NCBI RefSeq assembly: GCF_004324835.1
Contig: NW_021163190.1
Location: 191,242 to 255,241, forward strand
Length of the DNA: 64,000 bases
Direction of reading: 5' to 3'
Source: Dendronephthya gigantea
Lineage: Eukaryota
Shown piece after piece: positions 15,201-56,178 of this stretch. The notes below the pieces were generated by a model, which had not been told where the DNA came from, did not search any database, and saw only the letters and a list, made by a program, of their open reading frames with translations. Positions within the stretch are counted from its first letter, which is position 1, and each line of letters opens with the position of its first letter. Made by a program: the position numbers and the translations under genes.

Positions 15201-15745
15201 GGTCCCCCAGACCAAGAATCCTAACTGAGCCTCTGCCTCAAGAAATAGCTCAGTTACCTATTTTAAATATCAGCCTGTCTGTAAATGATGTCTGTGTCTG
15301 TCAGACTGCCACAGACCAAGTCATATTTTAAAATTTAACAATTAACAAGATTTGGAGAGATAGTTTTACTCTTTATTAAAACAAAACCCTGATTAACTAA
15401 TATAAATTGGTTTGTCAACTAAAATAAAATTCTTGTTTCAAGTTTGCTCACAGATTGTTTTGTAATTTCACGTTTTCCATCGCGTCCTTGAAGGCTTTTA
15501 GTACAAGATTTACATTATCTTTTGTACTTTTCAACCCCATCAGACCAACACGCCATATCTGAAAAATTTCATGACAAAAAGTAAGGTTTTTCACAGGGAA
15601 AAAAATTACGATTATGGAGCGAATATCTGCGAATATGGAGAAGAAAATTGTGAATATGCATACCTTTCCAGCAGATCTTCCAAGACCACCTGAAATATCC
15701 ATTTTATATCTGAAAAATAAATTGATTATTCAATTTGAACACTCC
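15200..15745. repeat. Conserved ~560-bp spacer module ('module C') found after every gene copy; contains the inverted repeat GTCTGTG..CACAGAC
   Basis: >95% identical copies at 3236-3735, 9062-9590, 19665-20215, 30515-31070, 38370-38930, 45875-46410 and 52545-53100. A partial inverted copy lies at 31737-31880. Confidence 0.8.
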
Positions 15746-22584: not shown

Positions 22585-24207
22585 ATGGCTTCATATATAC
22601 AAGGCTACGATGAAGAAAGGTTTGTGGACAAAATCAATCAAAATTTTCATTGTCAGATTTGCTTCAACGTCTTGAAAGAGCCGGTTATGTGTTCGAGAAA
22701 CCAGCATTCTTTTTGCCGTTGTTGTATTACGAAACATCTGGAAAATTCTCAAACATGCCCAACGTGTGCTGATGAACTGACCGTAGAGACTTTGGCCGAA
22801 GCACCGCGAATGGTTAAAGATTTCTTGAATGAATCGAAAATTCGTTGCGTTTACATCGACAGAGGTTGTCAAGAAGTTGTAGAATTACAGCATCTTGACC
22901 GCCATGAAAATACATGTGGATATACACCAGCCGTGTGTACAAACCAAGGCTGTGGTTTAATTGTCAACAAGCGTGATCTTATTCACCATGAAAGTGAAGT
23001 CTGTGAATTTCGAAAGTTGAAGTGTCACTCGTGCGGAGAAATAACCAAAACTTTGGCAGATATGGAGGAAAGAATGGCGAATATCGAGAATAATATCGAG
23101 AAGAATAATACAACAGTTGAAATTAAAATAACAAATTTAGACAGAAAAATAGACAAAAACACGGCAGATATAAAAGCGGATATGGAAGGAAAACACGAAG
23201 CGGTTAACAACAAAGTCGATGGATTGAAAACAGCTTTGGTCAAAGCTTTTAATGAAATAAAGGACGTTCTTATCACGATGGAGGGCAAGATAGAAGAAAA
23301 CACAAGAAAAGTAACAAATAGACCAAGTGGTGATAAGGAAAATATAATTGTTGCTGGAAGTTATGGAACTAACTCTGTAGAGATGTTTAACTGGCGTCAA
23401 AGAACATGGTCGCCATTACAATCAATGCCAGAGAATCGTTGTGGAGCGACTTCATTTATTTATAACAATCATATGACTATAGCTGGGGGTTGGTGTGGTG
23501 GGTCTGGCATTGTTGATGATATGATTAGAATGAATATTGACCCAAACCCTGATCTCTCAACAGACTGGAGTGACTGTCCTGTTAAACTACCTGATAAATT
23601 AATATTCCACAGCAGTGTGGTGTATAATGATGAGTTGATAGTCTCTGGAGGTGATAATGGAAATGGTTCATCTGACTTGATCAGAGCAGTCCAGCTTGTT
23701 CCTCCCTATACTGTGAAGACCTTATCAAGAATGCCAGAACCAAGACAATGTCACAGCATGGAAATATTTGATGATAATTTGTTGATAGTTGGTGGAAGTA
23801 CAATTAGCAGTTACAAAGGCAACCTTACCAGTGTCGTACTGTACGATATAAAGAAGAATGAGCTGAAACAGTTGTCACCACTACCGTATGAAGTGAGTCA
23901 CATGGCAACTGTGAGATGGGGAGACAACATTGTTGTTATTGGTGGTATTGACAAACATGGCAAGTTATTAGATAAAGTTATCATTTACAATGTGAAGACA
24001 GAACAAAGTCACATGCTGCCATCAATGAGATGTAAGAGGTGGGGATGTACTGCAGTTGTTATTGAAAACAACATTGTAGTCCTGGGAGGGGAGAGTGAGC
24101 AAGCAATGCAAACGTCAGTTGAAGGTTTCAACTTTGAAAGGTATTCTTGGGAAGAACTTCCAGAATTGTCTGAAGCAAAATGGATACACACTGCTGTTGT
24201 TGTGTGA
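22585..24207 (+). CDS. RING-zfTRAF-CC-Kelch paralog, 540 aa
   Basis: ORF track; same architecture; loop variants IAGGWCGGSGIVDD and LGGESEQAMQTSVEG. Confidence 0.85.
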   Translation: MASYIQGYDEERFVDKINQNFHCQICFNVLKEPVMCSRNQHSFCRCCITKHLENSQTCPTCADELTVETLAEAPRMVKDFLNESKIRCVYIDRGCQEVVELQHLDRHENTCGYTPAVCTNQGCGLIVNKRDLIHHESEVCEFRKLKCHSCGEITKTLADMEERMANIENNIEKNNTTVEIKITNLDRKIDKNTADIKADMEGKHEAVNNKVDGLKTALVKAFNEIKDVLITMEGKIEENTRKVTNRPSGDKENIIVAGSYGTNSVEMFNWRQRTWSPLQSMPENRCGATSFIYNNHMTIAGGWCGGSGIVDDMIRMNIDPNPDLSTDWSDCPVKLPDKLIFHSSVVYNDELIVSGGDNGNGSSDLIRAVQLVPPYTVKTLSRMPEPRQCHSMEIFDDNLLIVGGSTISSYKGNLTSVVLYDIKKNELKQLSPLPYEVSHMATVRWGDNIVVIGGIDKHGKLLDKVIIYNVKTEQSHMLPSMRCKRWGCTAVVIENNIVVLGGESEQAMQTSVEGFNFERYSWEELPELSEAKWIHTAVVV

Positions 24208-24769
24208 ACAATATGTAAGGTATTAAGTGAAAACTCCTAACATATTATGAACAATTGAAATGAACTATAAGATTTTCACAAAGTTATAGAAATAGATTGT
24301 AGGATTCTAAGTTGATTGTCAGACATATACTGATTTGTATTTTTGTAACTGAATTTAAATTGAGTCAGTTCTTGGAGTTATATATTAAAGAACAATGACA
24401 AATGTATGAAATAGATATTTCCATTCAGGAAGGTTTAAAATGAAACATCAAATAAAAGAATTCAAACAATAGGTAGGTGCATGAGTAAAAAAAATTTGAT
24501 TAAATATTGACCATGTTGGATCAGAGTTATTAGTTTCTATTAACTGCGGTTTGGATTTAAAAAATTCAACTTTCCTAGAAGCATAAATATTTCTGGGAGG
24601 AGACATAAAATGAAAGGGTAAACTTACGATGTTTCAGAGCATGTGATGCAGGGAATATTTCTGATGTTAGATTTCAACATTGATAATGGCGTTTGTTCAT
24701 CTCTACCATGATGTTCTCCACATTTGAAATAAAATTCCTTTGAAAGAACAAAAAGTTTGTGATCGACCT

Positions 24770-25190
24770 ACTTTAGTATTTTAATCTGTCTAATGTCAGA
24801 TGATTTTACTCATCAGTGGAAGAGTACTGTCAGTTAATAAGTTAACAAAACATTCTGTCAGTGTCTCTTGTTAACCCATTAGCTTGCAATGCACCCAGAT
24901 GTGACCTACTTTAGTATTTTACTCTGCCTAATGCCAGATGATTTTACTCATCAGTGGAAGAGTACTGTCAGTTAATAAGTTAACAAAACTATCTGTCAGT
25001 GTCTCTTGTTAACCCATTAGCTTGCAATGCACCCAGATGTGACCTACTTTAGTATTTTACTCTGTCTAATGTCAGATGATTTTACTCATCAGTGGAAGAG
25101 TACTGTCAGTTAATAAGTTAGCAAAACTATCTGTCAGTGTCTCTTGTTAACCCATTAGATTGCAATGCCCCCAGATGTGGCCCACTATTG
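24770..25190. repeat. Same 138-bp satellite, ~3 units, inverted orientation
   Basis: Reverse-complement monomers (tactttagtattttactctgtctaatgtcagatgattttactcatcagtggaagag...). Confidence 0.85.
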
Positions 25191-25619
25191 TATTTTAGGT
25201 CTGATAGGTCTTACAGCTGTTTTTCCATGACAGTTTGTATTGGATTCACATTGTCCCTGCAAGCGGCCTTTGATCAATACATCATCCCAACCATTTGGAC
25301 CCTTGCAAGAAACCATAAATATTGTGTAAACAAGATATTTGTTGACATTCAAAAGCTTTCACAGCAAGCTTGTAAACAAGTTGAAACAATGTCAACATTT
25401 AATTTACAAAGTTGTACATAAATCTGCTGTGGTTTTTTACAAGTTGTTTATAAGCAAAGAGTAAATACCTGTGATAGAACAAAGCTTCCTTCCTTGCAAT
25501 TTGAACATCGACATCGCAATTTTCCTCGTGTTAGTTTCTTGCAAGTTTTACAATAAACAAAGAAGAAACTTTGCTTGCCTGAGATGAGAGAGGATGAAAA
25601 GTTTGGATTATTAAAGAAG

Positions 25620-25960
25620 CCCTGGTGTAGAGAGATGAGCTTATTAGAAAGAGATTATTAATATTAAAGAGAAAGGGGCTTATTAGAGAGAGAGGCCTAT
25701 TAGAGAGAGAGGGGCTTATTAGAGAGAGAGGCCTATTAGAGAGAGAGGGGCTTATTAGAGAGAGAGGCCTATTAGAGAGAGAGGGACTTATTAGAGAGAG
25801 AGGGGCTTATTTGAGAGAGAGGCCTATTAGAGAGAAATGGGCTTATTTGAGAGAGAGGCCTATTAGAGAGAGAGGGGCTTATTAGAGAGAGAGGGGCTTA
25901 TTTGAGAGAGGGAGGGGCTATTAGAGAGAGAGGGGCTTTTTAGAGAGAGAGAGGGTGGGG
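25620..25960. repeat. ~17-bp minisatellite (CTTATTAGAGAGAGAGGGG), ~18 units, then ~600 bp of degenerate purine-rich ~70-bp repeats (to 26560); a diverged copy of the purine-rich block lies at 35470-36120
   Basis: Read directly; sits inside the intron of the minus-strand UBL gene. Confidence 0.85.
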
Positions 25961-26652
25961 CTTTATGGATAAAGTATAATAAGATTAGGGGGAAAGGCAG
26001 GGTAGAGAACCCCCTACCCAGGTTTCTCCATGAGGAAAATGCAAGGGTATTCAGGTAAGGGGGTATGGGCAAGGGTGGGGTGAGTTAATTGGAAAAAGAG
26101 TTTTTAGAGAGGAGGCATATTAGAAAGGGGCATGCTAGTAGGGAAGGGTATAGGGGATTGGCTATAGAGGGTTAATTAGAGAGGGATATAAGAGTTCTAA
26201 GAGGTACATTAGGGAGGGGCATACTATTAGGGAAGGGAATAGAGAATGATTTGAGGGTTAATTAGAGAGGAATATTAGAGAAGAGGTACATTAGGGAAGG
26301 GCATTGTGACAGAGAGGAATAGAAGTGATTTGAGGGTTAATTAGAGATGGCTGTTGAGAAGGATATTTTATAGAGGACAAACTAGAGAAAGGGTTATTAC
26401 AAAAGACGTGTATTAGACAGGAATACAATACAAGGAACAGACATGAAAAAGATGTTATTATAGTGGATTAACTAGAGAGAGGTTTATCAGGAAAGAGGTT
26501 TATTAAATCAGGTCATATCAGAAAGGGAGAGGAACGAGGGTGAACATAGTGGGAACATATTGGAGGTATTTATTGAGGGTGTAAAATTAGGAAGGGGATT
26601 AAACAGGGTGGGGTCACACCATTGAGAGGTTTATGAAAGATCTCGTCACCAC

Positions 26653-26800
26653 CTGATTGTTGAGATTCACCATCTTCATCTTTGTCATCCTGTGTCAGTT
26701 TCACTTTCGTCAAACCATCATTCGCATTGTAAGTTGCATCAACTGAGATCTGACCAGATTTCTGAACAGCATGAATGACGCTGTGGTTCATCTCTGCATT
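26653..26800 (-). CDS. Exon 2 of the UBL-domain gene (NAEMNHSVIHAVQKSGQISVDATYNANDGLTKVKLTQDDKDEDGESQQS..)
   Basis: Acceptor ttttatag|AATGCAGAG, phase 0. Completes the UBL fold (..SVIHAVQK). Candidate donor CAG|gtggtg at 26652. The paralogous copy diverges exactly after that site, as expected for an intron. Confidence 0.55.
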
Positions 26801-27227
26801 CTATAAAACACAGTTTCAGATCTCTGAATGCCAGACTCATCGTGGACTGATGGCAATTTAAAGACTGAGAATTTTGAGAATCATCTGAAAAATCCTGGAA
26901 ACTGTCCATGAGTGAAAATTCACATAAGTTTGGGTCAGGTTTTAGTGGAGAAAGATGGCTTTGAAAAATGTCTTAAAATATCATTTTATCAAGATTCAGA
27001 CACTGTGATATTCTGAGATGGACTGACTCAAGCAAGACAAGCTGTATCATAATCTATCTCAGATTTACTATAACGAAGATGCTCGCTTTAAACATCAAAA
27101 TCCCGAACTAAAAAAAACCTCATTTATGAAATCATTTAAACATTTCACAGTAAAGCTTTCGTTATTTCTTTGAAAATTGTTATATAAATCACATTAAAAG
27201 CTTGATATTTTCCTAAAAATCACTCAC

Positions 27228-27401
27228 CCCGAGTGTTAATTCATCGGGTAATTCTCGACCGGCAAAAATGATTTTAATTCCAGCAGTTTTGACATTTTTC
27301 TTGCGAGCAATTTCCCGTTTTAGTTGAGCGATTGTCCAGGATGGTTGAAAACGAAGGTTAAATGATTTGCCGTTGAAGTTTACGGTCACGTCGTGCGACA
27401 T
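27228..27401 (-). CDS. Exon 1 (start codon, 58 codons) of a ubiquitin-like-domain protein gene
   Basis: MSHDVTVNFNGKSFNLRFQPSWTIAQLKREIARKKNVKTAGIKIIFAGRELPDELTLG has the ubiquitin beta-grasp pattern (..IFAGKEL.., Parkin-UBL-like). In-frame upstream TAG. Ends with a perfect donor GGG|gtgagt. Confidence 0.65.
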
Positions 27402-28519
27402 ATTTCGCTAGAAAAGCTCGTGTATTTCCTTGCAATTGAGAGAAAATAATTCAAAATATTTTGCTTCAAAACGAAAGTTTGGAAAAGAAATGTTTGAAAA
27501 TTGAAAGTTTAAAACGACGGTTGCTTCCACTTACCAAAACAAACTTCCTCTTTTTCCCTTGAAATTTCACTCCCTAGCAGTTTTCTGATCTCTTGGAACA
27601 CTGGAATGTTCAGCGTTTTCTATGTTGGCAATCAATATAATTCCAGAGATTAGGTTAGGATTAGGGTTAAATTTAGGATTAGGTTTAACCCTATTTAACA
27701 ATAAACATAGGACCTAATCTTAACCCAAATCGTAACATAATCTCAAATAACAAATAATAAATTAGTCTGACGGATAGTTTTTTTAACTCATTAACTGCCA
27801 AAACAAACTTCCTCTTTTTTCCTTGAAATTTCACTCCCTTGCAGTTTTCTGATCTCTTGGAACACTGGAATGTTTAGCGTTTTCGAAGTTGACAATCAAT
27901 ATAATTCCATTTAATCCTTAAGATTAGGTTAGGATTAGGGTTAAAATTAGGAATGAGTCTCACCCTATTAAACTATAAACCTAAAACATAATCTTAACCC
28001 AATTCCTAAGATAATCCCAAAGATTAAATTCGTGTATTTAGGATTTAGTGAACATGGAGTTTTATATTAAAAACTATCGCAGCATCGTCAGCACTTTTGA
28101 AAGTGTAAATTCGCATTTTAATAGAACAAGTTAAAGCTTTTAGAGTCGACTTAAATTACTGCAAAATAACATTTCTCTAAAATCTACTGAAAATATCAGA
28201 AAAAGGTTTCATTTGGCTCCAGCTCTCTCCGTCAGCTCGTAACATTTTCAAATTCATTTTTGGAAACACCGCATCAAATTCCAGGAATTCCTGAGTCCTG
28301 ACAGGAGAGGACGCGTCTTATGCAAATACTTTATAAGGAAAAGATATTTGTCTTCATAAACTGATCATTTTGGAGAAGATTTCGAGAAAATACAAACACC
28401 GACTTCTCCAAGAACGAACACTGTATCTATATTTCAGTCTATACAGCGAGGTTTATACTACAGAGCGACAACACAACACAGAACTTGCTTTATTATTACG
28501 ACACAAGAACGACGTAAAT

Positions 28520-30157
28520 ATGGCTTCATATATACAAGGTTACGATGAAGAAAGGTTTGTGGACAAAATAAATCAAAATTTTCATTGTCAGATTTGCTTC
28601 AACGTCTTGAAAGAGCCGGTTATGTGTTCGAGAAACCAGCATTCTTTTTGCCGTTGTTGTATTACGAAACATCTGGAAAATTCTCAAACATGCCCAACGT
28701 GTGCTGATAAACTGACCGTAGAGACTTTGGCCGAACCTTCACGAATGGTAAAAGATTTTTTAAATGAATCAAAAATTCGTTGCGTTTACATCGACAGAGG
28801 TTGTCAAGAAGTTGTAGAAGTGCAGCATCTTGACCGCCATGAAGATACATGTGGATATACACCAGCCGTTTGTACAAACCAAGGCTGTGGTTTAATTGTC
28901 AACAAGCGTGATCTTATTCACCATGAAAGTGAAGTCTGTGAATTCCGAAAGTTGAAGTGTCACTCCTGCGGAGAAATAACGAAAACCTTGGCAGATATGG
29001 ACGAAAGAATGGCGAATATGGAAAAGAACATAGGGAAGGAATAGTATAACAATTGAAACTAAAATAACAAATTTAGAGCGAAATGTTGCACGGAATATCG
29101 AGAAAAACACGGCAGATATAAAAAGCAGATATGGAAGGAAAACACGAAGCGGTTAACAACAAAGTCGATGGATTGAAAACAGCTTTGGTCAGAGCTTTTG
29201 ATGAATGAAGGACGTTTTTATCACGATGGAGGGCAAGAAAGAAGAAAAACAAGAAAAGTAGGAAATAGACCAAGTGGTGATAAGGAAAATATAATTGTTG
29301 CTGGTGGAGGTTTTTTGAATGAGTCTGTAGAGATGTTTAACTGGCGTCAAAGAACATGGTCGCCATTACAATCAATGCCAAAGGATCGTTGGGGAGCGAC
29401 TTCATTTATTTATAACAATGATATGACTATAGCTGGGGGTTTCTGTGGTTTGTCTGGCATTGTTGATGATATGATTAGAATGAATATTGACCCAAACCCT
29501 GATCTCTCAACACACTGGAGTGACTGTCCTGTTAAACTACCTGATAAGTTGAAATACCACAGCAGTGTGCTGTATAATGATCAGTTGATAGTCTCTGGAG
29601 GTGATAATGAAAATGTTTCATCTGACCTGATCAGAGCAGTCCAGCTTGTTCCTCCCTATACTGTGAAGACCTTATCAAGAATGCCAGAACCAAGGCATGG
29701 TCACAGCATGGAATTATTTGATGATAATTTGTTGATAGTTGGTGGAACTACAACTGGCTATACCAAAGACAACCTTAGCAGTGTCACGCTGTATGATATT
29801 AAGAAGAATGAGTTGAAACAGTTGTCACCACTGCCGTATGAAGTGAGTCACATGGCAACTGTGAGATGGGGAGACAACATTGTTGTTATTGGTGGTGATG
29901 ACAAACATGGCAAGACATTAGATACAGTTATCATTTACAATGTCAAAACAGAACAAAGTCACATGCTGCCATCAATGAGATGTAAGAGGTGGGGATGTAC
30001 TGCAGTTGTTATTGAAAACAACATTGTAGTCCTGGGAGGATCTGGTGAGCAAGGAAAGATGAAGTCAGTTGAAGGTTTCAACTTTGAAAGGTATTCTTGG
30101 GAAGAACTTCCAGAAATGTCTGAAGCAAGATACTGGCACACTGCTGTTGTTGTGTGA
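28520..30157 (+). pseudogene. RING-zfTRAF-CC-Kelch paralog disabled by several indels in the coiled-coil region (~29030-29230); Kelch half still reads as an ORF
   Basis: ORF splits into 28370..29044 and 29198..30157. Versus other copies: atagggaaggaatagtataacaattg instead of ..aataatgtaacaattg, and tgatgaatgaaggacgttttta missing bases. The RING/TRAF part and the Kelch part are in different frames. Confidence 0.7.
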
Positions 30158-32841
30158 ACAATATGTAAGGTATTAAGTGAAAACTCCTAACATATTATGA
30201 ACAATTGAAATGAACTATAAGATTTTCACAAAGTTATAGAAATAGATTGTAGCATTCTAAGTTGATTGTCAGACATATACTGATTTGTATTTTTGTGATT
30301 AAATTTAAATTGAGTCAGTTCTTAGAATATTATATTAAAGAACAATAACAAATCTTTGAAATAGATTTTTTCATTGAGGAAGGTTTAAAATGAAACACCA
30401 AATAAAAAATTTTAAATAAGCTTTTCTGCATCCCCTCCACCTAGGTTTTTCACCCCCCCCCTACCACATAGGTTTTTCAGCCACAACCACCCCCCCACTG
30501 GGTTTTTGCCTGGTCCCCCAGACCAAGAATCCTAACTGAGCCTCTGCCTCAAGAAATAGCTCAGTTACCTATTTTAAATATCAGCCTGTCTGTAAATGAT
30601 GTCTGTGTCTGTCAGACTGCCACAGACCAAATCATATTTTAAAATTTAACAATTAACAAGATTTGGAGAGATAGTTTTACTCTTTAATAAAACAAAACCC
30701 TGATTAACTAATATAAATTGGTTTGTCAAATAAAATAAAATTCTTGTTTCAAGTTTGTTCACAGATTGTTTTGTAATTTCACGTTTTCCATCGCGTCCTT
30801 GCAGGCTTTTAGTACAAGATTTACATTATCTTTTGTACTGTTCAACCCCATCAGACCAACACGCCATATCTGAAAAATTTCACAACAAAAAGTACGGTTT
30901 TTCACAGGGGAAAAATTTACGATTATGGAGCGAATATCTGCGAATATGGAGAAGAAAATTGTGAATATGGATACCTTTCCAGCAGATCTTCCAAGACCAC
31001 CTGAAATATCCATTTTATACCTGAAAATGAAATTGATTATTCAATTTTAACACTCCCTCTTTATTGGACCTCAATCACCCCTCTGTATGTATTAAAAATA
31101 TAGGTGTTGGCAGGGGGGGTAGAAATTCCAAAGTCTATCAATCAGCAAGTACCGTTAATGAGAGGAATCACCCCCCTGCCCGTATTAAAAATGTATCTGT
31201 TGGCAGGGGGGTGATTGCTTTCATTTACCGTACCTGCTGAGTGACGAACCTCTTATGCAAAAAACTATGGAGTTGTTCTTCTGATAGGTATTCTGTGCCT
31301 ACACTTTCTTTTAGTTTTATTGTATTTTTATCTTTACTTGAAAGCACGACATGAAATTCCCATTTAGACCTAACCCGGGGGATGACGGGAGTCAATGACC
31401 AAATTCATTACTCATTCTGTTTCGAGAAATGCATTATAGTTTAAAATTTAGTTTAGTTGAATTCATATTAGAGGCGGGAAACTCGTCTTACAAGGTCAAG
31501 GAAAACAGGAAACTCGTCTTACAGGGGAAACTCCTCTTGGAAACTCATCTTAGACGGGAAACTCGTCGGATGTGAATCAGGCCACAGACGGGTTTCTCGT
31601 CAGAATTTTCCCGCCTAACTTTCCCGTCTAAACAAACGGTTAATTTGAACGGGAATCCCTTCTGGACGAGAAACTCGTCTTAAATTCGCATTTAGACGGA
31701 TAAATCAGACGAGTTTCTGAAATATCAAAAACTTGACAAACCAATTTATATTAGTTAATCCGGGTTTTGTTTTAATAGAGAGTAAAACTATCTCTCCAAA
31801 TCTTGTTAATTGTTAAATTTTAAAATATGACTTGGTCTGTGGCAGTCTGACAGACGCAGACATCATTTACAGACAGGCTGATATTTAAGAAAAACTTGAA
31901 ACGGTTAACAACGAGGTCATCCTAACTGAATCTTCATATCCACACTGTGTAGCCATATCACAGATTAATACCCAGATATCCCACTTCAGATTAAAAAAGC
32001 GTAACCCCTTGTTCAGCAAGTGGCTAGACGCATTCACCCTCCCGAAATTTCAAAATTGAGCGGAACTATTTTGTATATGAAAATAAACTCCTCTCATTTG
32101 CTAGAGAAAGGGACTGTATGATTAAGTTTGTGCCTAAATCCATCATCATCTATACGCGCTTTGAAAAAGTTAGTTAAGAGTACCTCGTTTTCAATATTGT
32201 AGAAGTGTTTTATCTTTTTTCGATTGTCGTAGGAGCGGAAAATTATAAGCAGTAGAAATCACTGTTCGACGGTATATTTTCAAACATATTTCATTTAAAA
32301 AGTACTAGTGTGTGCATGAATATCTTTACATTGAATAGCCTTTCCTGTACAAATCAATAAATGTACATATATTCCGTTTCATTTGAACACATCGTGCAGT
32401 TTTTAACCATATGCTCTATCTATAAACTATTTATTACGATTGATTTTTCTTAGTATAAAGTATCATTTTCTTTGAACTCATTTCCATATAATGAAATAAG
32501 AAATTCCTAGCAACATAAACACAACCAATAGCAAGTCAGTATTTAAATAAACAACAGGTACTCAGCTTTTGTCACAAGACAATAATATTAACATAATTTT
32601 TTTATACCACAAATTGCTGTCCACAAAACACTCTTTAAACACTTTAAAAGGAAGAGATATTTCTCTATTGTTCTAAACAGATAATTTTGCAAGAAATATA
32701 TTGAGAAAATACAAACACATGCAGACTTCTTCAAGAACGAACACTGTATCTATATTCAGTCTATACAGCGAGGTTTATACTACAGAGCGACAAACAACAC
32801 AGAACTTGCTTTATTATTACGACACAAGAACGACGTGAAAT

Positions 32842-34467: not shown

Positions 34468-34924
34468 ACAATATGTAAGGTATTAAGTGAAAACTCCTAA
34501 CATATTATGAACAATTGAAATGAACTATAAGACTTGCACAAAGTTATAAAAATAGATTGTAGCATTGTAAGTTGATTGTCAGACATATACTGATTTGTAT
34601 TTTTGTGATTGAATTTAAATAAAAGAATTCAAGCAATAGGTAGGCGCATGAGTGAAAAAAATTTGATTAAATATTGACCATGTTGGATCAGAGTTATTAG
34701 TTTCTATTAACTGTTGTTTGGATTAAAAAATTCAACTTTCCTAGAAGCATAAATATTTCTGGGAGGAGACATAAAATGAAAGGGTAAACTTACGATGTTT
34801 CAGAGCATGTGATGCAGGGAATATTTCTGATGTTAGATTTCAACATTGATAATGGCGCCTGTTCATCTCTACCATGATGTTCCCCACATTTGAAATAAAA
34901 TTCCTTTGAGAGAACAAGAAGTTT

Positions 34925-35225
34925 GTGATCAACCTACTTTAGTATTTTACCCTGTCTAATGTCAGATGATTTTACTCATCAGTGGAAGAGTACTGTCAGT
35001 TAACAAGTTAACAAAACTATCTGTCAGTGTCTCTTGTTAACCCACTAGCTTGCAATGCACCCAGATGTGACCTACTTTAGTATTTTACTCTGTCTAATTT
35101 CAGGTGATTTTACTCATCAGTGGAAGAGTACTGTCAGTTAATAAGTTAACAAAACTATTTGTCAGTATCTCTTGTTAACCCATTAGCTTGCAATGCACCT
35201 AGATGTGACCCACTATTGTATTTTA
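34925..35225. repeat. Same 138-bp satellite, ~2 units, inverted orientation (paralogous to 24770-25190)
   Basis: Sequence identity to 24770-25190. Confidence 0.85.
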
Positions 35226-36142
35226 GGTCTGATAGGTGAATAACTTACCGCTGTTGTTCCCTGACAGTTTGTATTGGATTCACATTGTCCCTGCATGCAG
35301 CCTTTGATCAATACATCATCCCAACCATTTGGACCCTTGCAAGAAACCATAAATATTGTGTAAACGAAATGTTTGTTGACATTCAAAAACTTTTACAGCA
35401 GCTTCCTTCCTTGCAATTTGAACATTGACATCGCAATTTTCCTCGTGTTAGTTTCTTGCAAGTTTTACAATAAACAAATTAGAAAGAGAGTGGCTTATTA
35501 GAGAGAGAGGGTGGGGTTTTATGGAAGAAGTATAATAAAATTAGGGAGGAAAGGCAGGGTAGAGAAACCCCTAACCAGGGTTTCTCCGTGAAAAAAATGT
35601 AAGGGTATCAAGCTGGGGATAGGGGTTTATTGGAGATGGACAATTAGAAAAGTGGTACAGTACTGTATTAGACGACACCCAGGTAAGGGGATATGGACAA
35701 GGGTGGGGTGGGTTAATTAGGAAAAGGGTTTTTAGAGAAGAGGCATATTAGAAAGGCGTATGCTAGTAGGGAAGGGTATAGGGGATTGGCTATAGAGGGT
35801 TATTTATAAAGGGATGTAAGAGAAGAGGTACATTAGGGAGGGGCTATCAGGATAGGGAATAGAGAATGATTTGAGGGTTAATTAGAGAGGAATATTAGAG
35901 AAGAGGTATATCAGGGAAGGGCATTATGAGAGAGGGGGATGGAGAGTGATTTGAAGGTTAATTAGAGATGGCTTTTGAGGAGGATATTTTATAGAGGACA
36001 AACTAGAGAAAGGGTTATCGGAAAAAAGGTGTATTAGACAGGGATACAATACAAGGAACAGACATGAAAAAGAGGTTATTATAGTGGGTTAACTAGAGAG
36101 AGGTTTATCAGGAAAGAGGACTTTATTAAATCTCATAACCAC

Positions 36143-36290
36143 CTGATTGTTGAGATTCACCATCTTCATCTTCGTCATCCTGTGTCAGTTTCACTTTCGT
36201 CAAACCATCATTCGCATTGTAAGTTGCATCAACTGAGATCTGACCAGATTTCTGAACAGCATGAATGACGCTGTGGTTCATCTCCGCATT
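36143..36290 (-). CDS. Exon 2 of the second copy of the UBL-domain gene
   Basis: Paralogous to 26653-26800 with the same acceptor and donor context. Confidence 0.5.
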
Positions 36291-36467
36291 CTAGAAAAAA
36301 ACACAGTTTCTGATCTCTGAATGTCAGACCCATTGTCGACTGATGGCAATTTAAAGACTGCTTTTCATTAAGTTAACTTTGCCTGCATGGGTGAAACAGC
36401 CTTCAGACAAATCTGCAGGTGCAGTTGTGACACGCCTCAAGAAAGAACAGGCAGCACCGTAGCGAGA

Positions 36468-36607
36468 AACTTAATTGACCTTTTTCATAATGACGTCAAA
36501 TGCGGAAAGTCTGATGTTACACAAAGTTTCATTGGTTTCATAGTTTTGTGGAGCCAATCAAATTTCGTGTAACATCAGGCTTTCCGTGTTTGAGGTCAGT
36601 ATAAGAA
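36468..36607. mobile_element. ~140-bp palindromic MITE-like element (second copy at 48961-49110)
   Basis: gacctttttcataatgacgtcaaatgcggaaagtctgatgttacac...gtgtaacatcaggctttccgtgtttgaggtcagtataagaaaggtc folds on itself. Copy 2 interrupts the ttaggattagggttaaa repeat. Confidence 0.55.
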
Positions 36608-37495
36608 AGGTCCATTACAGGCGTACATTCATATACTTGTTTATGCCCAACAAATTTCTTTTGTAAGCTATTGTTCCTATCATATGTAAACATGAATGTA
36701 CGAATATACACCCTTCAATTAAGCTGTCTAGCCATGGCACTGACGCAAAGTTAATGTAATGAAAACCACCTTCAGGAATACAAATATTTCATGTTCTGAA
36801 ACTTCACTTTCTGATGCAACTTTAAAAAGCCAAGCATTTGTTAAAATGGTAAAAATTTGTAGATCTTTCACTTAAACTTGCTTTCAAATCAGTCTACCAT
36901 AAAAAAGCCAACCAGATTTCTCTCTTTTTTGAAAGCCCAGCTGTGCACAGACCATCTATTGTAGTCAACTCTCCAGTATTTGCAAAGAAATTTAAAAAGA
37001 TTTCACTGATGAGGTAATAGTGCTAAATAATCTCACATTTCAGTGAATTATTTTGTAAATACATTCACAATGACAATGTTGGTTGCTTTACTTTTGAGCC
37101 ATATTCCAAGACACCTGAAGCCTGGCTAGAATCTGAGAATTTTGAGAATCATCTGAAAAATCCTGGAAACTGTCCATGAGTGAGAATTCACATAAGTTTG
37201 GGTCGGGTTTTAGTGAAGAAAGATCGCTTTGAAAAATGTCTTAAAATATCATTTTATCAAGATTCAGACACTGTGATATTCTGAGATGGACTGACTCAAG
37301 CAAGACAAGCTGTATCATAATCTATCTCAGATTTACTATAACGAAGATGGTCGCTTTAAACATCAAAATCCCGAACTAAAAAAAACCTCATTTATGAAAT
37401 CATTTCAACATTTCACAGTAAAGCTTTCGTTATTTCTTTGAAAATTGTTATATAAATCACATTAAAAGCTTGATATTTTCCTAAAAATCACTCAC

Positions 37496-37669
37496 CCCGA
37501 GTGTTAATTCATCGGGTAATTCTCGACCGGCAAAAATGATTTTAATTCCAGCAGTTTTGACATTTTTCTTGCGAGCAATTTCGCGTTTTAGTTGAGAGAT
37601 TGTCCAGGATGGTTGAAAACGAAGGTTAAATGATTTGCCGTTGAAGTTTACGGTCACGTCGTGCGACAT
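37496..37669 (-). CDS. Exon 1 of the second copy of the UBL-domain gene (segmental duplicate)
   Basis: ORF track 37481..37669: identical protein except A25S; same gtgagt donor. Confidence 0.65.
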
Positions 37670-38961
37670 ATTTCGCTAGAAAAGCTCGTGTATTTCCTTC
37701 CAATTGAGATAAAATAATTCAAAATATTTTGCTTCAAAACGAAAGTTTGGAAAAGAAATGTTTGAAAATTGAAAGTTTAAAACGACGGTTGCTTCTACTT
37801 ACCAAAACAAACTTCCTCTTTTTTCCTTGAAATTTCACTCCCTGACAGTTTTCTGATCTCTTGGAACACTGGAATGTTTAGCGTTTTCTAAGTTGACAAT
37901 CAATATAATCCATTTAATCCTTGAGATTAGGTTAGGATTAGGGTTAAACTTAGGATTAGGTTTATCCCTATTTAACAATAAACTTAAAACCTAATCTTAA
38001 CCCAAATCGTAACATAATCTCTGATCTCTCGCAACACTGGAATCTGATCTCTCGCTACACTGGAATGTTTGGTGTTTTCGATCCCGGCAGTATTATCCAT
38101 TTAATCCTTGAGATTAGGTTAGGATTAGGGTTAAATTTAGGATAAGTTTAACCCTAATAAACTATAAACCAAAAACATAATCTTAACCTAATTCCTAACA
38201 TAATCCCAAAGATTAAATTCGTGTATTTAGGATTTAGTAAACATGGAGTTTTATATTAAAAACTATCGCAGCATCGTCAGCACTTTTGAAAGTGTAAATT
38301 CGCATTTTAATAGAACAAGTTAAAGTTTTCAGCCACAACCTCACCTGGGTTCTTCTGCCCCGGTCCCCCAGACCGAGAATCCTAACTGAGCCTCTGCCTC
38401 GAGAAATAGCTCAGTTACCTATTTTAAATATCAGACTGTCTGTAAATGATGTCTGTGTCTGTCAGACTGCCACAAACCAAGTCATATTTTAAAATTTAAC
38501 ATATAACAAGATTTGGAGAGATAGTTTTACTCTTTATTAAAACAAAACCCTGATTAACTAATATAAATTGGTTTGTCAAATAAAATAAAATTCTTGTTTC
38601 CAGTTTGCTCACAGATTGTTTTGTAATTTCACGTTTTCCATCGCGTCCTTGAAGGCTTTTAGTACAAGATTTACATTATCTTTTGTACTGTTCAACCCCA
38701 TCAGACCAACACGCCATATCTGAAAAATTTCACCACAAAAAGTACGGTTTTTCACAGGGAAAAAAATTTACGATTATGGAGTGAATATCTGCGAATATGG
38801 AGAAGAAGATTGTGAATATGGATACCTTTCCAGCAGATCTTCCAAGACCACCTGAAATATCCATTTTATATCTGAAAAAGAAATTGATTATTCAATTTTA
38901 ACACTCTCCCTCTTTACTGGACCTCTAAGAATCACCCCCCCTGCAAGTATTAAAAATGGGG

Positions 38962-52211: not shown

Positions 52212-53099
52212 ACAATATGTAAGGTATTAAGTGAAAACTCCTAACATATTATGAACAATAGAAATGAACTATAAGATTTTCACAAAGTTATAGAAATAGA
52301 TTGTAGCATTCTAAGTTGACTGTCAGACATATACTGATTTGTATTTTTGTGATTGAATTTAAAGTATTTTCTTAGAATTATATATTAAAGAACAATAACA
52401 AATCTTTGAAATAGATATTTTCATTGAGGAAGGCTTAAAATGAAACACCAAATAAAACATTCGAAATAAGCTTTTCTGCACCCCCTCCACATAGGTTTTT
52501 CAGCAACAACTCCACCCCTCTCCACCTGGGTTCTTCTGCCTTGGTCCCCCAGACCAAGAATCCTAAGTGAGCCTCTGCCTCAAGAAATAGCTCAGTTACC
52601 TATTTTAAATATCAGCCTGTCTGTAAATGATGTCTGTGTCTGTCAGACTGCCACAGACCAAGTCATATTTTAAAATTTAACAATTAACAAGATTTGAAGA
52701 GATAGTTTTACTTTTTATTAAAACAAAACCAAAAACTGATTAACTAATATAAATTGGTTTGTCAACTAAAATAAAATTCTTGTTTCAAGTTTGCTCACAG
52801 ATTGTTTTGTAATTTCACGTTTTCCATGGCGTCCTTGAAGGCTTTTAGTACAAGATTTACATTATCTTTTGTACTGTTCAACCCCATCAGACCAACACGC
52901 CATATCTGAAAAATTTCACAACAAAAAGTACGGTTTTTCACATGGAAAAAAAATTACGATTATGGAGCTAATATCTGCGAATATGGAGAAGAAAATTGTG
53001 AATATGGATACCTTTCCAGCAGATCTTCCAAGACCACCTGAAATATCCATTTTATATCTGAAAAATAAATTGATTATTCAATTTTAACACTCTCCCTCT

Positions 53100-53520
53100 T
53101 TATTGGACCTGTAGGAATAACCTTTATTGTTGACCTCTAGAAAGAACAATTTAGAGCTATCCAGTATAAATAAAGTTGGTTTAGTTTAGGTTTCCTCCTG
53201 TAGTAACACTGGATCATTAAGAGATGATCCTTACTGAACCTCTAGGAAGAACAGTTTAGAACTGATAGAACTATCCAGTAAAAATAAAATTAGTTTAGTT
53301 TAGGTTTCCTACTGTAGTAACACTGGATCAATAAAAGATGATCCTTACTGAACCTCTAGGAAGAACAGTTTAGAACTGATAGAACTATCCAGTAAAAATA
53401 AAATTAGTTTAGTTTAGGTTTCCTACTGTAGTAACACTGGATCAATAAAAGATGATCCTTACTGGATCTCTAGGAAGAACAGTTTAAAACTGATAGAGCT
53501 ATCCAGTATTAAGAAAGTTA
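53100..53520. repeat. ~115-bp tandem repeat, ~3.5 units
   Basis: cctctaggaagaacagtttagaactgatagaactatccagtaaaaataaaattagtttagtttaggtttcctactgtagtaacactggatcaataaaagatgatccttactgaa repeated. Confidence 0.85.
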
Positions 53521-53535
53521 GTTTAGTAAACATAC

Positions 53536-53618
53536 TTTTCGCCAATGAATGCTGAAACTTTCTTCCAGTCGACTCCTTGTGGAATAACAACTCCAGTGAT
53601 GGTAGATAAGCGATGGCG
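53536..53618 (-). CDS. AGXT: AGXT-like exon 8 (RHRLSTITGVVIPQGVDWKKVSAFIGE..); terminal exon(s) not located in this window
   Basis: Matches [27 protein letters not shown]. Acceptor ctcatag|, donor AA|gtatgt. No downstream coding exon found through the 115-bp repeat block. Confidence 0.55.
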
Positions 53619-53698
53619 CTATGAGAGAAAATGGAAGATTAATCCTTTAAACTACGATTAACATTTCTGCATGGACATCACTAAAATATTTCTCAAAC

Positions 53699-53794
53699 CT
53701 TGTCTTGAACAAATAAGGTGAATCCCATTTTCTCGAAACCTTCGCGTAAAAGTTCAGCACATTTCTGATGTCTTGCAATAAAGTTTTCAAGACC
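53699..53794 (-). CDS. AGXT: AGXT-like exon 7 (GLENFIARHQKCAELLREGFEKMGFTLFVQDK)
   Basis: Matches [31 protein letters not shown]. Acceptor atttag|, donor AAG|gtttga. Confidence 0.65.
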
Positions 53795-53800
53795 CTAAAT

Positions 53801-54590
53801 ATGAGAGTTGACAAGCGAGAGTTTACATGAGAGTTTCATCAACTATCATTGCTTCATCAAACGAGAACAAGAGTTACATGAGAGTTGACAAGCGAGAGTT
53901 TACATGAGAGTTTCATCAACTATCATTGCTTGATCAAACGAGAACAAGAGTTGCATGAGAGTTGACAAGCGAGAGTTTACATGAGAGTTTCATCAACTAT
54001 CATTGCTTGATCAAACGAGAACAAGAGTTACATGAGAGTTGACAAGCGAGAGTTTACATGAAAGTTTCATCAACTATCATTCCTTGATCAAACGAGAACA
54101 AGAGTTACATGAGAGTTGACAAGCGAGAGTTTACATGAGAGTTTCATCAACTATCATTGCTTGATCAAACGAAAACAAGAGTTGCATGAGAGTTGACAAG
54201 CGAGAGTTTACATGAGAGTTTCATCAACTATCATTGCTTGATCAAACGAGAACAAGAGTTGCATGAGAGTTGACAAGCGAGAGTTTACATGAGAGTTTCA
54301 TCAACTATCATTGCTTGATCAAACGAAACAAGAGTTGCATGAGAGTTGACAAGCGAGAGTTTACATGAGAGTTTCATCAACTATCATTGCTTGATCAAAC
54401 GAGAACAAGAGTTGCATGAGAGTTGACAAGCGAGAGTTTATATGAGAGTTTCATCAACTATCATTGCTTGATCAAACGAGAACAAGAGTTGCATGAGAGT
54501 TGACAAGCGAGAGTTTATATGAGAGTTTCATCAACTATCATTGCTTGATCAAACGAGAACAAGAGTTGCATGAGAGTTGACAAGCGAGAG
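53801..54590. repeat. 77-bp tandem repeat, ~10 units (in AGXT-like intron 6)
   Basis: atgagagttgacaagcgagag recurs at 53801 and 53878; unit gagagttgacaagcgagagtttacatgagagtttcatcaactatcattgcttgatcaaacgagaacaagagttgcat. Confidence 0.9.
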
Positions 54591-54629
54591 TTAATATATA
54601 ATCCAGTCAAAAACGTTGTTTAAACAAAC

Positions 54630-54699
54630 CTCCTCAACCACAAGTGAAAGAGCTTCTCGTAAAGCATATACCGAATTTGTTGGTCCAGTATGATGGTAT
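54630..54699 (-). CDS. AGXT: AGXT-like exon 6 (YHHTGPTNSVYALREALSLVVEE)
   Basis: Matches [25 protein letters not shown]. Acceptor ccttag|, donor GAG|gtttgt. Confidence 0.65.
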
Positions 54700-55261
54700 C
54701 TAAGGATTATATTGAAACAGGCAATATTAGTCATATTACTGTTGAATTTATAATGGTTGCACTGAGTGAATTTGTGATTTCACACCAAAATTGCACGACA
54801 CAAAGTGCAATTTCCACTTTATTATATTCATTTTGAAATCATACAAAAGATTAAACAAATTCAAAACGATTTATTGGCTGAAAGAACCGTAAACGCGGTG
54901 TAAAATGTGAGCAATTTTCATTTATTTTTGTGAAGAAATTTTGCGGGGCATTTAAAATTCAAAATAATAAAATTTTGTTCCATATTTTCCCGTGTAATTT
55001 GATTGGATGGTTACACTGAAATACTAAATCTGATTGGTTATTGTGGTGCAGAGCTTCAATCTTATTGGCTTATAAATGATGTGATTAATGCTCAAAAATA
55101 GTGCGATTTGGGAATTAATCACAGTATTTTTAACCAATCAGATTGCAAGAAACACCATTGATTTCAAAATGAATATAATAAAGTGTAGTATGTTACTGGT
55201 GTTCATAATTATCATGTCTGGAAAATCAATAACAGCAACATATGAAGATGGTTTGTCTCAC

Positions 55262-55339
55262 CTGCGTGGCCCATCATCACAACCCCAGTAATTTGCAATC
55301 ATTGTGAGATCAAAGTAGAATGAGGGTACTTTAGTTTTC
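55262..55339 (-). CDS. AGXT: AGXT-like exon 5 ([26 protein letters not shown])
   Basis: Matches [25 protein letters not shown]. Acceptor atccag|, donor CAG|gtgaga. Confidence 0.7.
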
Positions 55340-55920
55340 CTGGATTGCAATTTCTTCCTAGAAATATCAGAAATATCTTTCTCAGGTAGTTCTGACACAA
55401 ACCATGACAGCTTATTGTAGAATACTACCTACACTGGACCACCAGGTTTGAGATATCTTGCTCAGGTAGTTCAGACACAAACCACGACAGCTTATGTAGA
55501 ATACTACCTACACTGGACCACCACATTTGAGATATTTTTCTCAGGTAAATCAGACACAAACCACGACAGCTTATTGTAGAATACTGCCTACACTGGAACA
55601 CCACATTTGAAATATCTTTCTCAGGTAGTTCAGGCACAAACCAGGATAGCTTATTGTAGAATACTACCTACACTGAACCACCACGTTTGAGATATCTTTC
55701 TCAGGTAGTTCAGACACAAACCAGGATAGCTTATTGTAGAATACTACCTACACTGAACCACCACGTTTGAGATATCTTTCTCAGGTAGTTCAGGCACAAA
55801 CCACGACAGCTTATTGTAGAATACTACCTACACTGGACCACCACATTTGAGATATCTTAATTATCTTTCTCAGGTAGTTCAGACACAAACCACTACAGCT
55901 TATTGTAGAATACTACAGTA
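55330..55920. repeat. ~80-bp tandem repeat, ~7 units (in AGXT-like intron 4)
   Basis: ctcaggtagtt recurs at 55381, 55461, 55540. Confidence 0.85.
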
Positions 55921-55983
55921 CACTTGACCACTATGACCATTGAGACATGGTTTTTCAGGACAAATTAGTTCAACCAATACTTA

Positions 55984-56178
<195 letters not shown>

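What the first reader, a model, noticed from the sequence alone, without database searches (positions are those of the whole stretch)
24440..28400. A duplicated ubiquitin-like-domain gene sits inside the E3 ligase array
Two ~3.9-kb paralogous segments (24440-28400, 34620-38330) are spliced into the array between Kelch copies. Each carries a minus-strand gene whose first two exons encode a complete ubiquitin fold (..IKIIFAGRELPDELTLG|NAEMNHSVIHAVQK..) resembling the Parkin-type N-terminal UBL. Its intron is packed with a 17-bp minisatellite and purine-rich repeats. A UBL gene duplicated together with an expanding RING E3 family may be coincidental, but functional linkage (UBL as regulator or substrate adaptor) is worth testing. 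Later exons are not identified in the window.
Basis: partly seen in the sequence, partly recalled or inferred. Interest (0 to 1): 0.5.

Follow-up and report, generated by a model that had tools for sequence, protein, structure and literature searches.

The report
Truncated Parkin gene copies in array
The "ubiquitin-like gene" is the front half of the soft coral's Parkin gene, copied passively with a neighbouring gene's tail as a tandem gene array grew through the old Parkin locus, so it is an ordinary partial duplicate (one copy intact, one broken) and not a partner of the array's E3 ligases.

Summary
In detail: two paralogous 3.7-kb segments (24454-28141 and 34621-38329) each carry a minus-strand gene starting with a ubiquitin-like domain. 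The gene has five coding exons, not two. They encode Parkin's UBL, linker, RING0 and the first CxxC of RING1. The spliced copy-1 product is identical to RefSeq XP_028415294 ("parkin-like", 210 aa, Dendronephthya gigantea). That model ends only because the exon-5 splice donor (TC|GTAAGT) is read through as a stop. No RING1-IBR-RING2 exon exists in the 64 kb. A related assembly has a complete 438-aa, 11-exon Parkin 1.06 kb downstream of a class-V aminotransferase gene. The window holds that same aminotransferase gene, so it is the ancestral Parkin locus. Its last two exons are repeated in every array unit, and beside copy 2 they sit 943 bp from the Parkin ATG. The array units are therefore segmental duplicates of this locus joined to a RING-TRAF-Kelch gene, and most units have lost the Parkin part. 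Copy 2 has lost both exon-3 splice sites and is a pseudogene. Copy 1 is intact but no better conserved. Functional linkage with the E3 array is not supported. Where the coral's Parkin catalytic exons are remains unknown.

The parts
24454..28141 (-). Copy 1 of the Parkin 5' segment: upstream region, five coding exons and the first 174 bp of intron 5
   Evidence: Paralogy with 34621-38329. The spliced product equals RefSeq XP_028415294 / P0001.
27228..27401 (-). Copy 1 coding exon 1 (ATG at 27401-27399): N-terminal two thirds of the UBL
   Evidence: Donor CTCGGG|gtgagt. Pfam ubiquitin.
26653..26800 (-). Copy 1 exon 2: end of the UBL including the Ser65 equivalent, plus the acidic linker. Donor CAG|GTGGTG as used by the RefSeq model.
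   Evidence: Ser65 column is invariant in alignment A4.
25469..25578 (-). Copy 1 exon 3: first part of RING0 (FFFVYCKTCKK...CRCSNC)
   Evidence: tblastn against human Parkin 146-178. Splice sites.
25215..25301 (-). Copy 1 exon 4: middle of RING0
24624..24737 (-). Copy 1 exon 5 (24737-24628): end of RING0 and the first CxxC of RING1. It is followed by the donor TC|GTAAGT, whose read-through gives TCG-TAA, the stop of the annotated 210-aa product.
   Evidence: The same donor occurs in the full-length orthologue L002.
25662..25951 (.). 19/17-nt minisatellite in intron 2
   Evidence: TRF period 19 and 36, 15.7 copies.
24765..25197 (.). 138-bp satellite (3.1 copies) in intron 4. It is also present at 5638-6604 and 56185-57570.
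24454..24471 (.). Breakpoint between Parkin intron 5 and the 3' tail of the RING-Kelch unit. Copy 2 has the same junction sequence at about 34621.
   Evidence: Alignment A2...ATAAAAGAATTCAA[A/G]CAA|TAGGTAGG... in both copies.
34621..38329 (-). Copy 2 of the Parkin 5' segment, a pseudogene. Exon 1 is 37669-37496 and exon 2 is 36290-36143. The exon 3 remnant 35478-35401 has neither splice site. Exon 4 is 35335-35249 and exon 5 is 34903-34794. A 775-bp insertion sits in intron 1 (36361-37135).
38612..38885 (-). Duplicated copy of the last two aminotransferase exons directly upstream of copy 2. Its stop codon is 943 bp from the Parkin ATG.
   Evidence: The ancestral spacing is 1,058 bp in L002.
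52795..58050 (-). Complete class-V aminotransferase (AGXT-like) gene, the ancestral upstream neighbour of Parkin. Its last two exons (53071-53009, 52908-52795) form the first 'B-start' copy of the array.
   Evidence: Collinear tblastx with L002 3697-8943. Pfam Aminotran_5 E 1e-32.
22585..24207 (+). RING/TRAF-ZnF/coiled-coil/Kelch array gene, convergent with copy 1

Best explanation
The two segments are unprocessed, 3'-truncated partial duplicates of the Parkin (PRKN) gene of the octocoral Dendronephthya gigantea, sitting at the ancestral Parkin locus. In the ancestor a class-V aminotransferase gene was followed about 1 kb later by a compact 11-exon Parkin gene. In this lineage a DNA block carrying an intronless RING-TRAF-Kelch gene became joined to Parkin intron 5, 174 bp after exon 5, and to the aminotransferase intron before its penultimate exon. 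The resulting unit was [aminotransferase last two exons - intergenic - Parkin exons 1-5 - RING-Kelch gene on the opposite strand - spacer]. It was then amplified in tandem by unequal crossing-over. Most units later deleted the 3.7-kb Parkin part, and two units in this window keep it. Copy 2 has decayed into a pseudogene, with exon 3 stripped of both splice sites and 32 coding nt. Copy 1 keeps five intact exons and is annotated as a 210-aa 'parkin-like' protein (UBL with the Ser65 equivalent, linker, RING0). It has no exon 6 to splice to, so the ORF ends at the read-through donor. It lacks RING1, IBR, REP and the catalytic RING2 and cannot be an RBR ligase. The Parkin fragments are passengers of the array's expansion, exactly like the aminotransferase 3' fragments, and are most likely non-functional or decaying. 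Shown: exon structure, identity to the RefSeq model, absence of RBR exons in the window, synteny, the shared breakpoint, co-amplified aminotransferase exons, and the lesions of copy 2. Inferred: the order of events, unequal crossing-over as the mechanism, and lack of function for copy 1.
For: Five GT-AG exons with compatible phases give 210 aa, identical to P0001/XP_028415294. Pfam finds ubiquitin plus zf-RING_12 only. No RBR match appears in 64 kb with human, amphioxus, Orbicella, Oscarella, Sanderia or the closest (L002) RBR probes: nothing with the cnidarian set at E<=5, and only chance hits at E>=2 otherwise. L002 and L003 have a complete 438-aa, 11-exon Parkin (UBL, RING0, RING1, IBR, RING2) with the same exon-5 donor and exon 6 about 0.6 kb downstream. 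The aminotransferase exons 58050->52795 are collinear with L002 3697->8943, and Parkin starts 1,058 bp later there. The last two aminotransferase exons occur 8 times, once per unit, while exon 1 and a representative internal exon are single-copy. Beside copy 2 the spacing to the Parkin ATG is 943 bp. Both copies have an identical junction with the unit tail. Copy 2's lesions are shown. Private amino-acid replacements number 4 in copy 1, including an otherwise invariant Met (the human M192 position), against 3 in broken copy 2. pN/pS is 0.43 and not significant (p=0.16), with pS of 4.0% close to the non-coding 4.3%. At least ten further short D. gigantea 'parkin-like' models are known. None has an RBR, and several are damaged: a frameshift, a lost exon 5, a Zn-ligand C->F. 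No RING-Kelch gene lies beside Parkin in L001-L003. No terminal inverted repeats were found.
Against: Copy 1 and several other copies keep open reading frames and all RING0 zinc ligands. Exonic divergence between the two copies (2.0%) is about half the non-coding divergence (4.3%, Fisher p=0.02). That could mean weak purifying selection, gene conversion, or merely repeat-inflated intron divergence. RefSeq lists several isoforms per locus, which suggests transcription. The window starts inside an array unit, so exons 6-11 could lie further left. In principle copy 1, or a copy beyond the edge, could still splice to them across more than 24 kb. I could not inspect the rest of the scaffold.
Confidence: 0.78

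Rival explanations
1. Copy 1, or a further copy to the left, is the 5' half of the coral's functional full-length Parkin. The RING-Kelch array is nested in a greatly enlarged intron 5, and exons 6-11 lie beyond the window's left edge.
For: Copy 1's five exons and the exon-5 donor are intact, and the CDS ends in phase 2 as if expecting exon 6. The window is the ancestral locus. The array runs off the left edge. The exon-5 donor is used for splicing to foreign exons elsewhere (P0012, P0003).
Against: None of the 10 or more RefSeq 'parkin-like' models of D. gigantea contains RING1/IBR/RING2. The exhaustive search found no protein of 400 aa or more that is closer than 46% identity. Copy 1 carries a replacement at an otherwise invariant Met and as many private changes as the pseudogene. 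At least 24.6 kb and five antisense genes would have to be spliced out, against a 0.6-kb intron in the relative.
Confidence: 0.12
2. The truncated UBL-RING0 proteins are a new functional gene family. They could act as PINK1 decoy substrates or as dominant modulators of a full-length Parkin or of the neighbouring RING-Kelch ligases, and would be kept by selection and amplified for dosage.
For: Several copies have intact ORFs. The Ser65 equivalent and the RING0 zinc ligands are conserved. Exons diverge less than introns (p=0.02). pN/pS is 0.43. Annotated isoforms suggest expression.
Against: pN/pS is not significantly below 1. The intact copy has as many private replacements as the broken one, one of them at an invariant site. 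Many copies are visibly damaged. Most array units have deleted the segment. The aminotransferase 3' fragments are amplified equally without any plausible function. The stop codon is just the ancestral splice donor, not a dedicated terminus. The only other short octocoral models (Paramuricea) are cut off by the end of a 10-kb contig.
Confidence: 0.08
3. The segments are gene fragments captured and moved by a transposable element (Pack-MULE or Helitron style) that inserted into the array.
For: Parkin pieces occur at several other D. gigantea loci and are fused to unrelated genes. MITE-like and palindromic elements sit in and around the segments.
Against: No terminal inverted repeats bracket either segment. 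The 5' flank of copy 2 is the ancestral aminotransferase-Parkin intergenic arrangement at the ancestral spacing. Introns and the promoter side are retained. Both copies share one junction with the array unit.
Confidence: 0.02

Closest known systems
Parkin (PRKN/PARK2), RBR E3 ubiquitin ligase. Closest complete relatives here: the 438-aa gene in ENA assembly ERZ25878362 (L002/L003), Orbicella faveolata XP_020622869.1 and Branchiostoma parkin.
   Same: Same UBL (Ser65 equivalent kept), linker and RING0 with all zinc ligands, and the first CxxC of RING1. The exon boundaries match the L002 gene and, from memory, human exons 2-6. The upstream neighbour (class-V aminotransferase) is the same as in L002/L003. 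Identity is 72% to L002, 45% to Orbicella and 39% to human over the aligned part.
   Different: It stops after exon 5. There is no RING1 core, IBR, REP or RING2 catalytic cysteine in the window, so it is not an RBR ligase. It is multi-copy, and one copy is a pseudogene.
RefSeq 'E3 ubiquitin-protein ligase parkin-like' models of Dendronephthya gigantea (XP_028415293-300, XP_028417469-74, XP_028418386-88, XP_028416993-94)
   Same: Copy 1 is XP_028415294/5/7, with 210/210 residues identical.
   Different: The automatic name implies a ligase. The annotation does not say that these are 3'-truncated partial duplicates lacking the catalytic module, or that they sit in the disrupted ancestral locus.
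Truncated partial gene duplicates created by segmental duplication (for example human SRGAP2B/C, NOTCH2NL; from general knowledge)
   Same: A DNA-level duplicate that keeps the promoter, 5' exons and introns, is truncated in an intron, and ends its ORF just past the last retained exon.
   Different: For the human examples a function of the truncated product was shown experimentally. Here there is no such evidence, and the substitution pattern is compatible with neutrality.
Human PRKN exon deletions and duplications at the FRA6E fragile site (from general knowledge)
   Same: Structural rearrangement with breakpoints inside Parkin introns that removes or duplicates blocks of 5' exons.
   Different: Those are somatic or germline disease alleles in a 1.4-Mb gene. 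This is a fixed (or at least assembled) lineage-specific rearrangement of an originally compact gene of about 8 kb.

Membership tests
Parkin (RBR E3 ligase) | N-terminal ubiquitin-like domain with the PINK1 target Ser65 | tested here: met
   Pfam ubiquitin at residues 6-72, E 4e-14. The Ser65 column is invariant across 15 sequences including human.
Parkin (RBR E3 ligase) | RING0 / unique Parkin domain with two zinc sites | tested here: met
   Pfam zf-RING_12 at residues 124-193 of the 220-aa test product, E 4e-27. All Cys/His ligands align with human, Orbicella and L002 in copy 1.
Parkin (RBR E3 ligase) | RING1 (E2-binding RING) | tested here: not met
   Only the first CxxC (CITC) is encoded at the end of exon 5. 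There is no zf-RING_14 match and no RING1 exon in the window. It is present in L002.
Parkin (RBR E3 ligase) | IBR domain | tested here: not met
   No match in 64 kb with six RBR probes.
Parkin (RBR E3 ligase) | REP linker and RING2 with the catalytic cysteine | tested here: not met
   No match in the window. The L002 orthologue has ...GCNHMTCSRCRHEWCWVC....
Parkin (RBR E3 ligase) | Orthologous genomic position | tested here: met
   The class-V aminotransferase gene lies immediately upstream, as in L002/L003, with spacing of 943 bp against 1,058 bp.
Unprocessed partial duplicate / pseudogene | Introns and upstream region retained (a DNA-level copy, not a retrocopy) | tested here: met
   Four introns are retained in both copies, and the upstream region is shared to 28141/38329.
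Unprocessed partial duplicate / pseudogene | Truncated relative to the complete gene at a defined breakpoint | tested here: met
   Homology ends 174 bp into intron 5 at the same junction in both copies. The complete gene in the relative has 11 exons.
Unprocessed partial duplicate / pseudogene | Disabling lesions | tested here: met
   Copy 2: exon 3 has lost its acceptor plus 17 nt and its donor plus 15 nt. Copy 1 has no internal lesion beyond the truncation.
Unprocessed partial duplicate / pseudogene | Neutral substitution pattern | tested here: inconclusive
   pN/pS is 0.43 (8 N: 5 S), p=0.16. Exons diverge 2.0% against 4.3% for non-coding (p=0.02). Private replacements number 4 (copy 1) against 3 (copy 2).
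Transposon-captured gene fragment | Terminal inverted repeats or other element termini bracketing the fragment | tested here: not met
   Copy 1 has no inverted repeats of 14 nt or more, and copy 2 has only internal ones. The flank is ancestral intergenic DNA.
UBL-UBA shuttle or other UBL adaptor proteins | UBL combined with a UBA, UIM or other adaptor domain | tested here: not met
   Pfam finds only ubiquitin and Parkin RING0.

The most novel reading that the evidence does not exclude
Dendronephthya gigantea may have destroyed its canonical Parkin gene. In that case the ancestral locus is shattered by the array and the RBR exons are lost, leaving only a family of expressed UBL-RING0 mini-proteins that keep the PINK1 phospho-acceptor Ser65. 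These could act as PINK1 decoys or as RING0-based modulators. That would be a natural 'catalytic-module knockout' of Parkin in an animal, with a truncated paralogue family possibly under weak selection.
Probability: 0.1. Interest if true: 0.6.

Novelty: new member of a known kind. Interest (0 to 1): 0.27.

Why it matters
It corrects a tempting functional story. Co-amplification of a UBL gene with an E3 ligase array here results from physical linkage, and an internal control (the aminotransferase 3' fragments amplified in the same units) shows this. It also flags that the many RefSeq 'E3 ubiquitin-protein ligase parkin-like' entries of this coral are truncated, non-catalytic fragments, which matters for anyone counting Parkin/PINK1 pathway genes in cnidarians. 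The one open point of wider interest is whether this species still has a catalytic Parkin at all.

Tried and rejected
(1) Looking the D. gigantea models and a window-encoded array protein up on public contigs, to see past the window edge: not indexed. (2) Two word-index homology searches with RBR-half profiles (human plus invertebrate, then Orbicella plus Sanderia), to find an annotated octocoral RBR: no octocoral hit. The searches did not even return the queries' own full-length parents, so absence is uninformative. (3) The Paramuricea clavata contig L001: it has the same five exons, but the contig ends 1.37 kb after exon 5 and has no aminotransferase gene within 5 kb upstream, so it cannot decide whether that gene is full length. 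(4) My first exon-2 donor (26620, giving 220 aa) was replaced by the RefSeq-supported upstream donor (26653). With it, copy 2's exon 2 is intact, so the pseudogene call rests on exon 3 only. (5) Nucleotide alignment of introns between the window and L002/L003: only exons align (72-86%), so the breakpoint cannot be mapped onto the relative's intron 5. (6) The transposon-capture idea: no terminal repeats. (7) Literature: the D. gigantea genome paper does not mention parkin, Kelch or TRAF. Searches for parkin/PINK1 in cnidarians gave only incidental mentions.
Full report
OBSERVATION. The window is AT-rich eukaryotic DNA (GC about 37%) holding a tandem array of units of about 4.5-5 kb (self-blastn). 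Each unit carries an intronless plus-strand ORF of 534-547 aa with a C3HC4 RING, a Sina/TRAF-type zinc finger, a coiled coil and a Kelch propeller. Two paralogous segments interrupt the array. After refinement they span 24454-28141 and 34621-38329, with 90-96% identity in alignable blocks.

WHAT THE GENE IS. Reading on from the two quoted exons, the same segment contains three more exons. The copy-1 exons are 27401-27228, 26800-26653, 25578-25469, 25301-25215 and 24737-24628. All have GT-AG borders and compatible phases. Pfam finds ubiquitin (E 4e-14) and zf-RING_12, the Parkin RING0 domain (E 4e-27), and nothing else. The spliced CDS is 629 nt and ends in phase 2. Reading through the donor TC|GTAAGT gives TCG-TAA and a 210-aa product that is residue-for-residue identical to P0001, which is RefSeq XP_028415294/5/7, 'E3 ubiquitin-protein ligase parkin-like' of Dendronephthya gigantea. 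The window is therefore D. gigantea, an octocoral, and the gene is already annotated.

THE TWO COPIES ARE NOT EQUIVALENT. Relative to copy 1, copy 2 has a 775-bp insertion in intron 1. It has a 138-bp deletion that removes the exon-3 acceptor and the first 17 coding nt. It also has a 117-bp deletion that removes the last 15 coding nt and the donor of exon 3, along with several intronic deletions. Its exon 3 remnant cannot be spliced, so copy 2 is a pseudogene. My first impression that exon 2 was also damaged was wrong. With the RefSeq-supported donor (CAG|GTGGTG at 26653) exon 2 is intact in both copies.

IS THERE A CATALYTIC HALF? No RING1, IBR or RING2 coding sequence is detectable anywhere in the 64 kb. 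This holds for probes from human and from amphioxus, Orbicella, Oscarella, Sanderia and three unnamed invertebrates (nothing at E<=5). It also holds for the closest available RBR, from L002 (best E = 2, chance level). The exhaustive representative search shows that the closest complete relatives are Parkins of about 440 aa from Branchiostoma, the stony coral Orbicella faveolata, the sponge Oscarella and the jellyfish Sanderia. Full-length Parkin is therefore ancestral in Cnidaria.

A COMPLETE ORTHOLOGUE AND SYNTENY. Exon-1-sized ORFs from that search led to two long contigs of ENA assembly ERZ25878362 (L002, L003). Both contain the same five exons followed, after an intron of about 0.6 kb, by RING1, IBR, REP and RING2 exons. 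A splice-aware model of L002 gives an intact 438-aa, 11-exon protein with UBL, RING0, RING1, IBR and RING2. Its exon-5 donor (AACTTC|gtaagttt) is the same as in the window (AACATC|gtaagttt). The 'stop' of the D. gigantea 210-aa model is therefore simply the ancestral splice donor. In L002 and L003 a class-V aminotransferase gene lies upstream on the same strand, with its stop codon 1,058 bp (L002) before the Parkin ATG. The window contains that same gene, with exons collinear from 58050 down to 52795 on the minus strand (Pfam Aminotran_5, E 1e-32). The window is therefore the ancestral Parkin locus.

HOW THE ARRAY RELATES TO IT. The last two aminotransferase exons lie inside the sequence that begins the 'B' part of every array unit. 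They occur eight times, at about 52.9, 46.2, 38.7, 30.9, 20.0, 15.5, 9.3 and 3.5 kb. Exon 1 and a representative internal exon occur once. Next to copy 2 the duplicated aminotransferase stop (38612) is 943 bp from the Parkin ATG (37669), which is the ancestral arrangement. On the other side, both Parkin copies end 174 bp into intron 5 at an identical junction with the 3' tail of the RING-Kelch unit, and copy 2 has one extra 93-bp deletion. The units are therefore segmental duplicates of [aminotransferase 3' end - intergenic - Parkin exons 1-5] joined to a RING-Kelch gene on the opposite strand. Most units have since deleted the 3.7-kb Parkin part. No RING-Kelch gene lies next to Parkin in L001, L002 or L003, so the rearrangement is lineage-specific. 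No terminal inverted repeats bracket the segments, which argues against transposon capture. The order of events and unequal crossing-over as the amplifying mechanism are inferences from this anatomy.

IS COPY 1 UNDER SELECTION? Between the copies there are 8 non-synonymous and 5 synonymous differences (pN/pS 0.43, Fisher p = 0.16). pS is 4.0%, close to the non-coding divergence of 4.3%. Exons as a whole diverge less than non-repetitive non-coding sequence (2.0% against 4.3%, p = 0.02), which is weak evidence for some constraint or for gene conversion. I polarised the replacements with nine other D. gigantea paralogues and four orthologues. Copy 1 has four private changes, including Met->Leu at a position invariant in every other sequence (the human M192 position). 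The broken copy 2 has three. Other paralogues show a frameshift (P0020), loss of exon 5 (P0021, P0027, P0028), a zinc-ligand Cys->Phe (P0030) and a Phe->Leu in the EFYFKC motif (P0022, P0029). On balance the family looks like it is decaying, but the test has little power.

WIDER CONTEXT. D. gigantea has at least ten short 'parkin-like' RefSeq models (148-297 aa) on scaffolds of 375,850, 133,106, 40,569 and 186,085 bp. It also has chimeric models in which Parkin exons are spliced to MIX23/CCDC58-like, LECT2-like and other genes. None contains an RBR module. The genome paper reports high heterozygosity (PMC6447388), so some small scaffolds may be haplotigs and the copy number may be inflated. 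The Paramuricea clavata 'parkin-like' models are short only because the contig ends 1.37 kb after exon 5.

VERDICT. The interpretation as a UBL gene functionally linked to the E3 array is not supported. The segments are 3'-truncated, non-catalytic partial duplicates of Parkin that hitch-hiked with an expanding array at the disrupted ancestral Parkin locus. One is a pseudogene, and the other is an intact but probably functionless ORF. What remains unknown is where, or whether, this coral keeps Parkin exons 6-11. I could not look beyond the window, and protein-database searches were uninformative.

Noticed in passing
window 3444-3715, 9276-9551, 15451-15723, 19911-20184, 30762-31034, 38612-38885, 46112-46385 (minus strand): Seven extra copies of the last two exons of the class-V aminotransferase gene, one per array unit, 85-100% identical at protein level to the real exons at 52798-53071. 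They are orphan 3' gene fragments co-amplified with the array.
   Followed up: yes
window 246-1028, 6996-8618, 13211-14815, 17665-19308, 22585-24207, 28370-30157, 32842-34467, 43872-45422, 50571-52211 (plus strand): Nine copies of an intronless RING / Sina-TRAF zinc finger / coiled-coil / Kelch-propeller gene. Six are intact at 534-547 aa, one is split by a frameshift (28370/29198), one is 5'-truncated (43872) and one is cut by the window edge. The Kelch blades vary most between copies, which suggests a diversifying lineage-specific E3 or immune-type family.
   Followed up: partly
window 24765-25197, 34.9-35.2 kb, 5638-6604, 56185-57570: The same 138-bp satellite sits in Parkin intron 4, in an array spacer and in aminotransferase introns. 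Other tandem repeats lie in the aminotransferase introns: 77-bp period at 53801-54597 and 80-bp period at 55370-55931. A satellite at 53149-53547 matches a roughly 114-bp satellite in L002/L003, where it occurs in both the aminotransferase and the Parkin introns.
   Followed up: partly
window 36361-37135 and 48967-49106: The 775-bp insertion in intron 1 of copy 2 contains a near-perfect palindrome (69-nt arms, 36472-36617). A related 140-bp copy interrupts a Parkin-upstream-like remnant at 48834-49217. It looks like a MITE-type element.
   Followed up: partly
window 27534-27747 and 27798-28021; 37802-38019 and 38043-38205: Both Parkin copies share an internal duplication of about 220 bp in the upstream region. 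It includes a 5'-UTR-like exon ending in a GTAAGT donor (about 27590-27541) and a telomere-repeat-like (CCCTAA-like) MITE-looking stretch. The RefSeq model P0031 from another locus splices this UTR exon directly to exon 2.
   Followed up: partly
other D. gigantea scaffolds (proteins P0012, P0013/P0032, P0030, P0003, P0031): Parkin exons are spliced in RefSeq models to MIX23/CCDC58-like, LECT2-like and uncharacterised genes, to an antisense exon near the RING-Kelch gene start, and across two consecutive Parkin fragments. This shows dispersal of the fragment and use of its exon-5 donor with foreign exons.
   Followed up: partly
L002 and L003 (ENA ERZ25878362, contigs of 838 kb and 1.66 Mb): Two contigs are 94-97% identical over aminotransferase-Parkin. 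L003 has a macoilin ORF downstream on the opposite strand.
   Followed up: no
window 61329-61712 (+) and 62085-62429 (-): Two ORFs of 127 and 114 aa with signal-peptide-like N-termini lie beyond the aminotransferase gene. They were not characterised.
   Followed up: no
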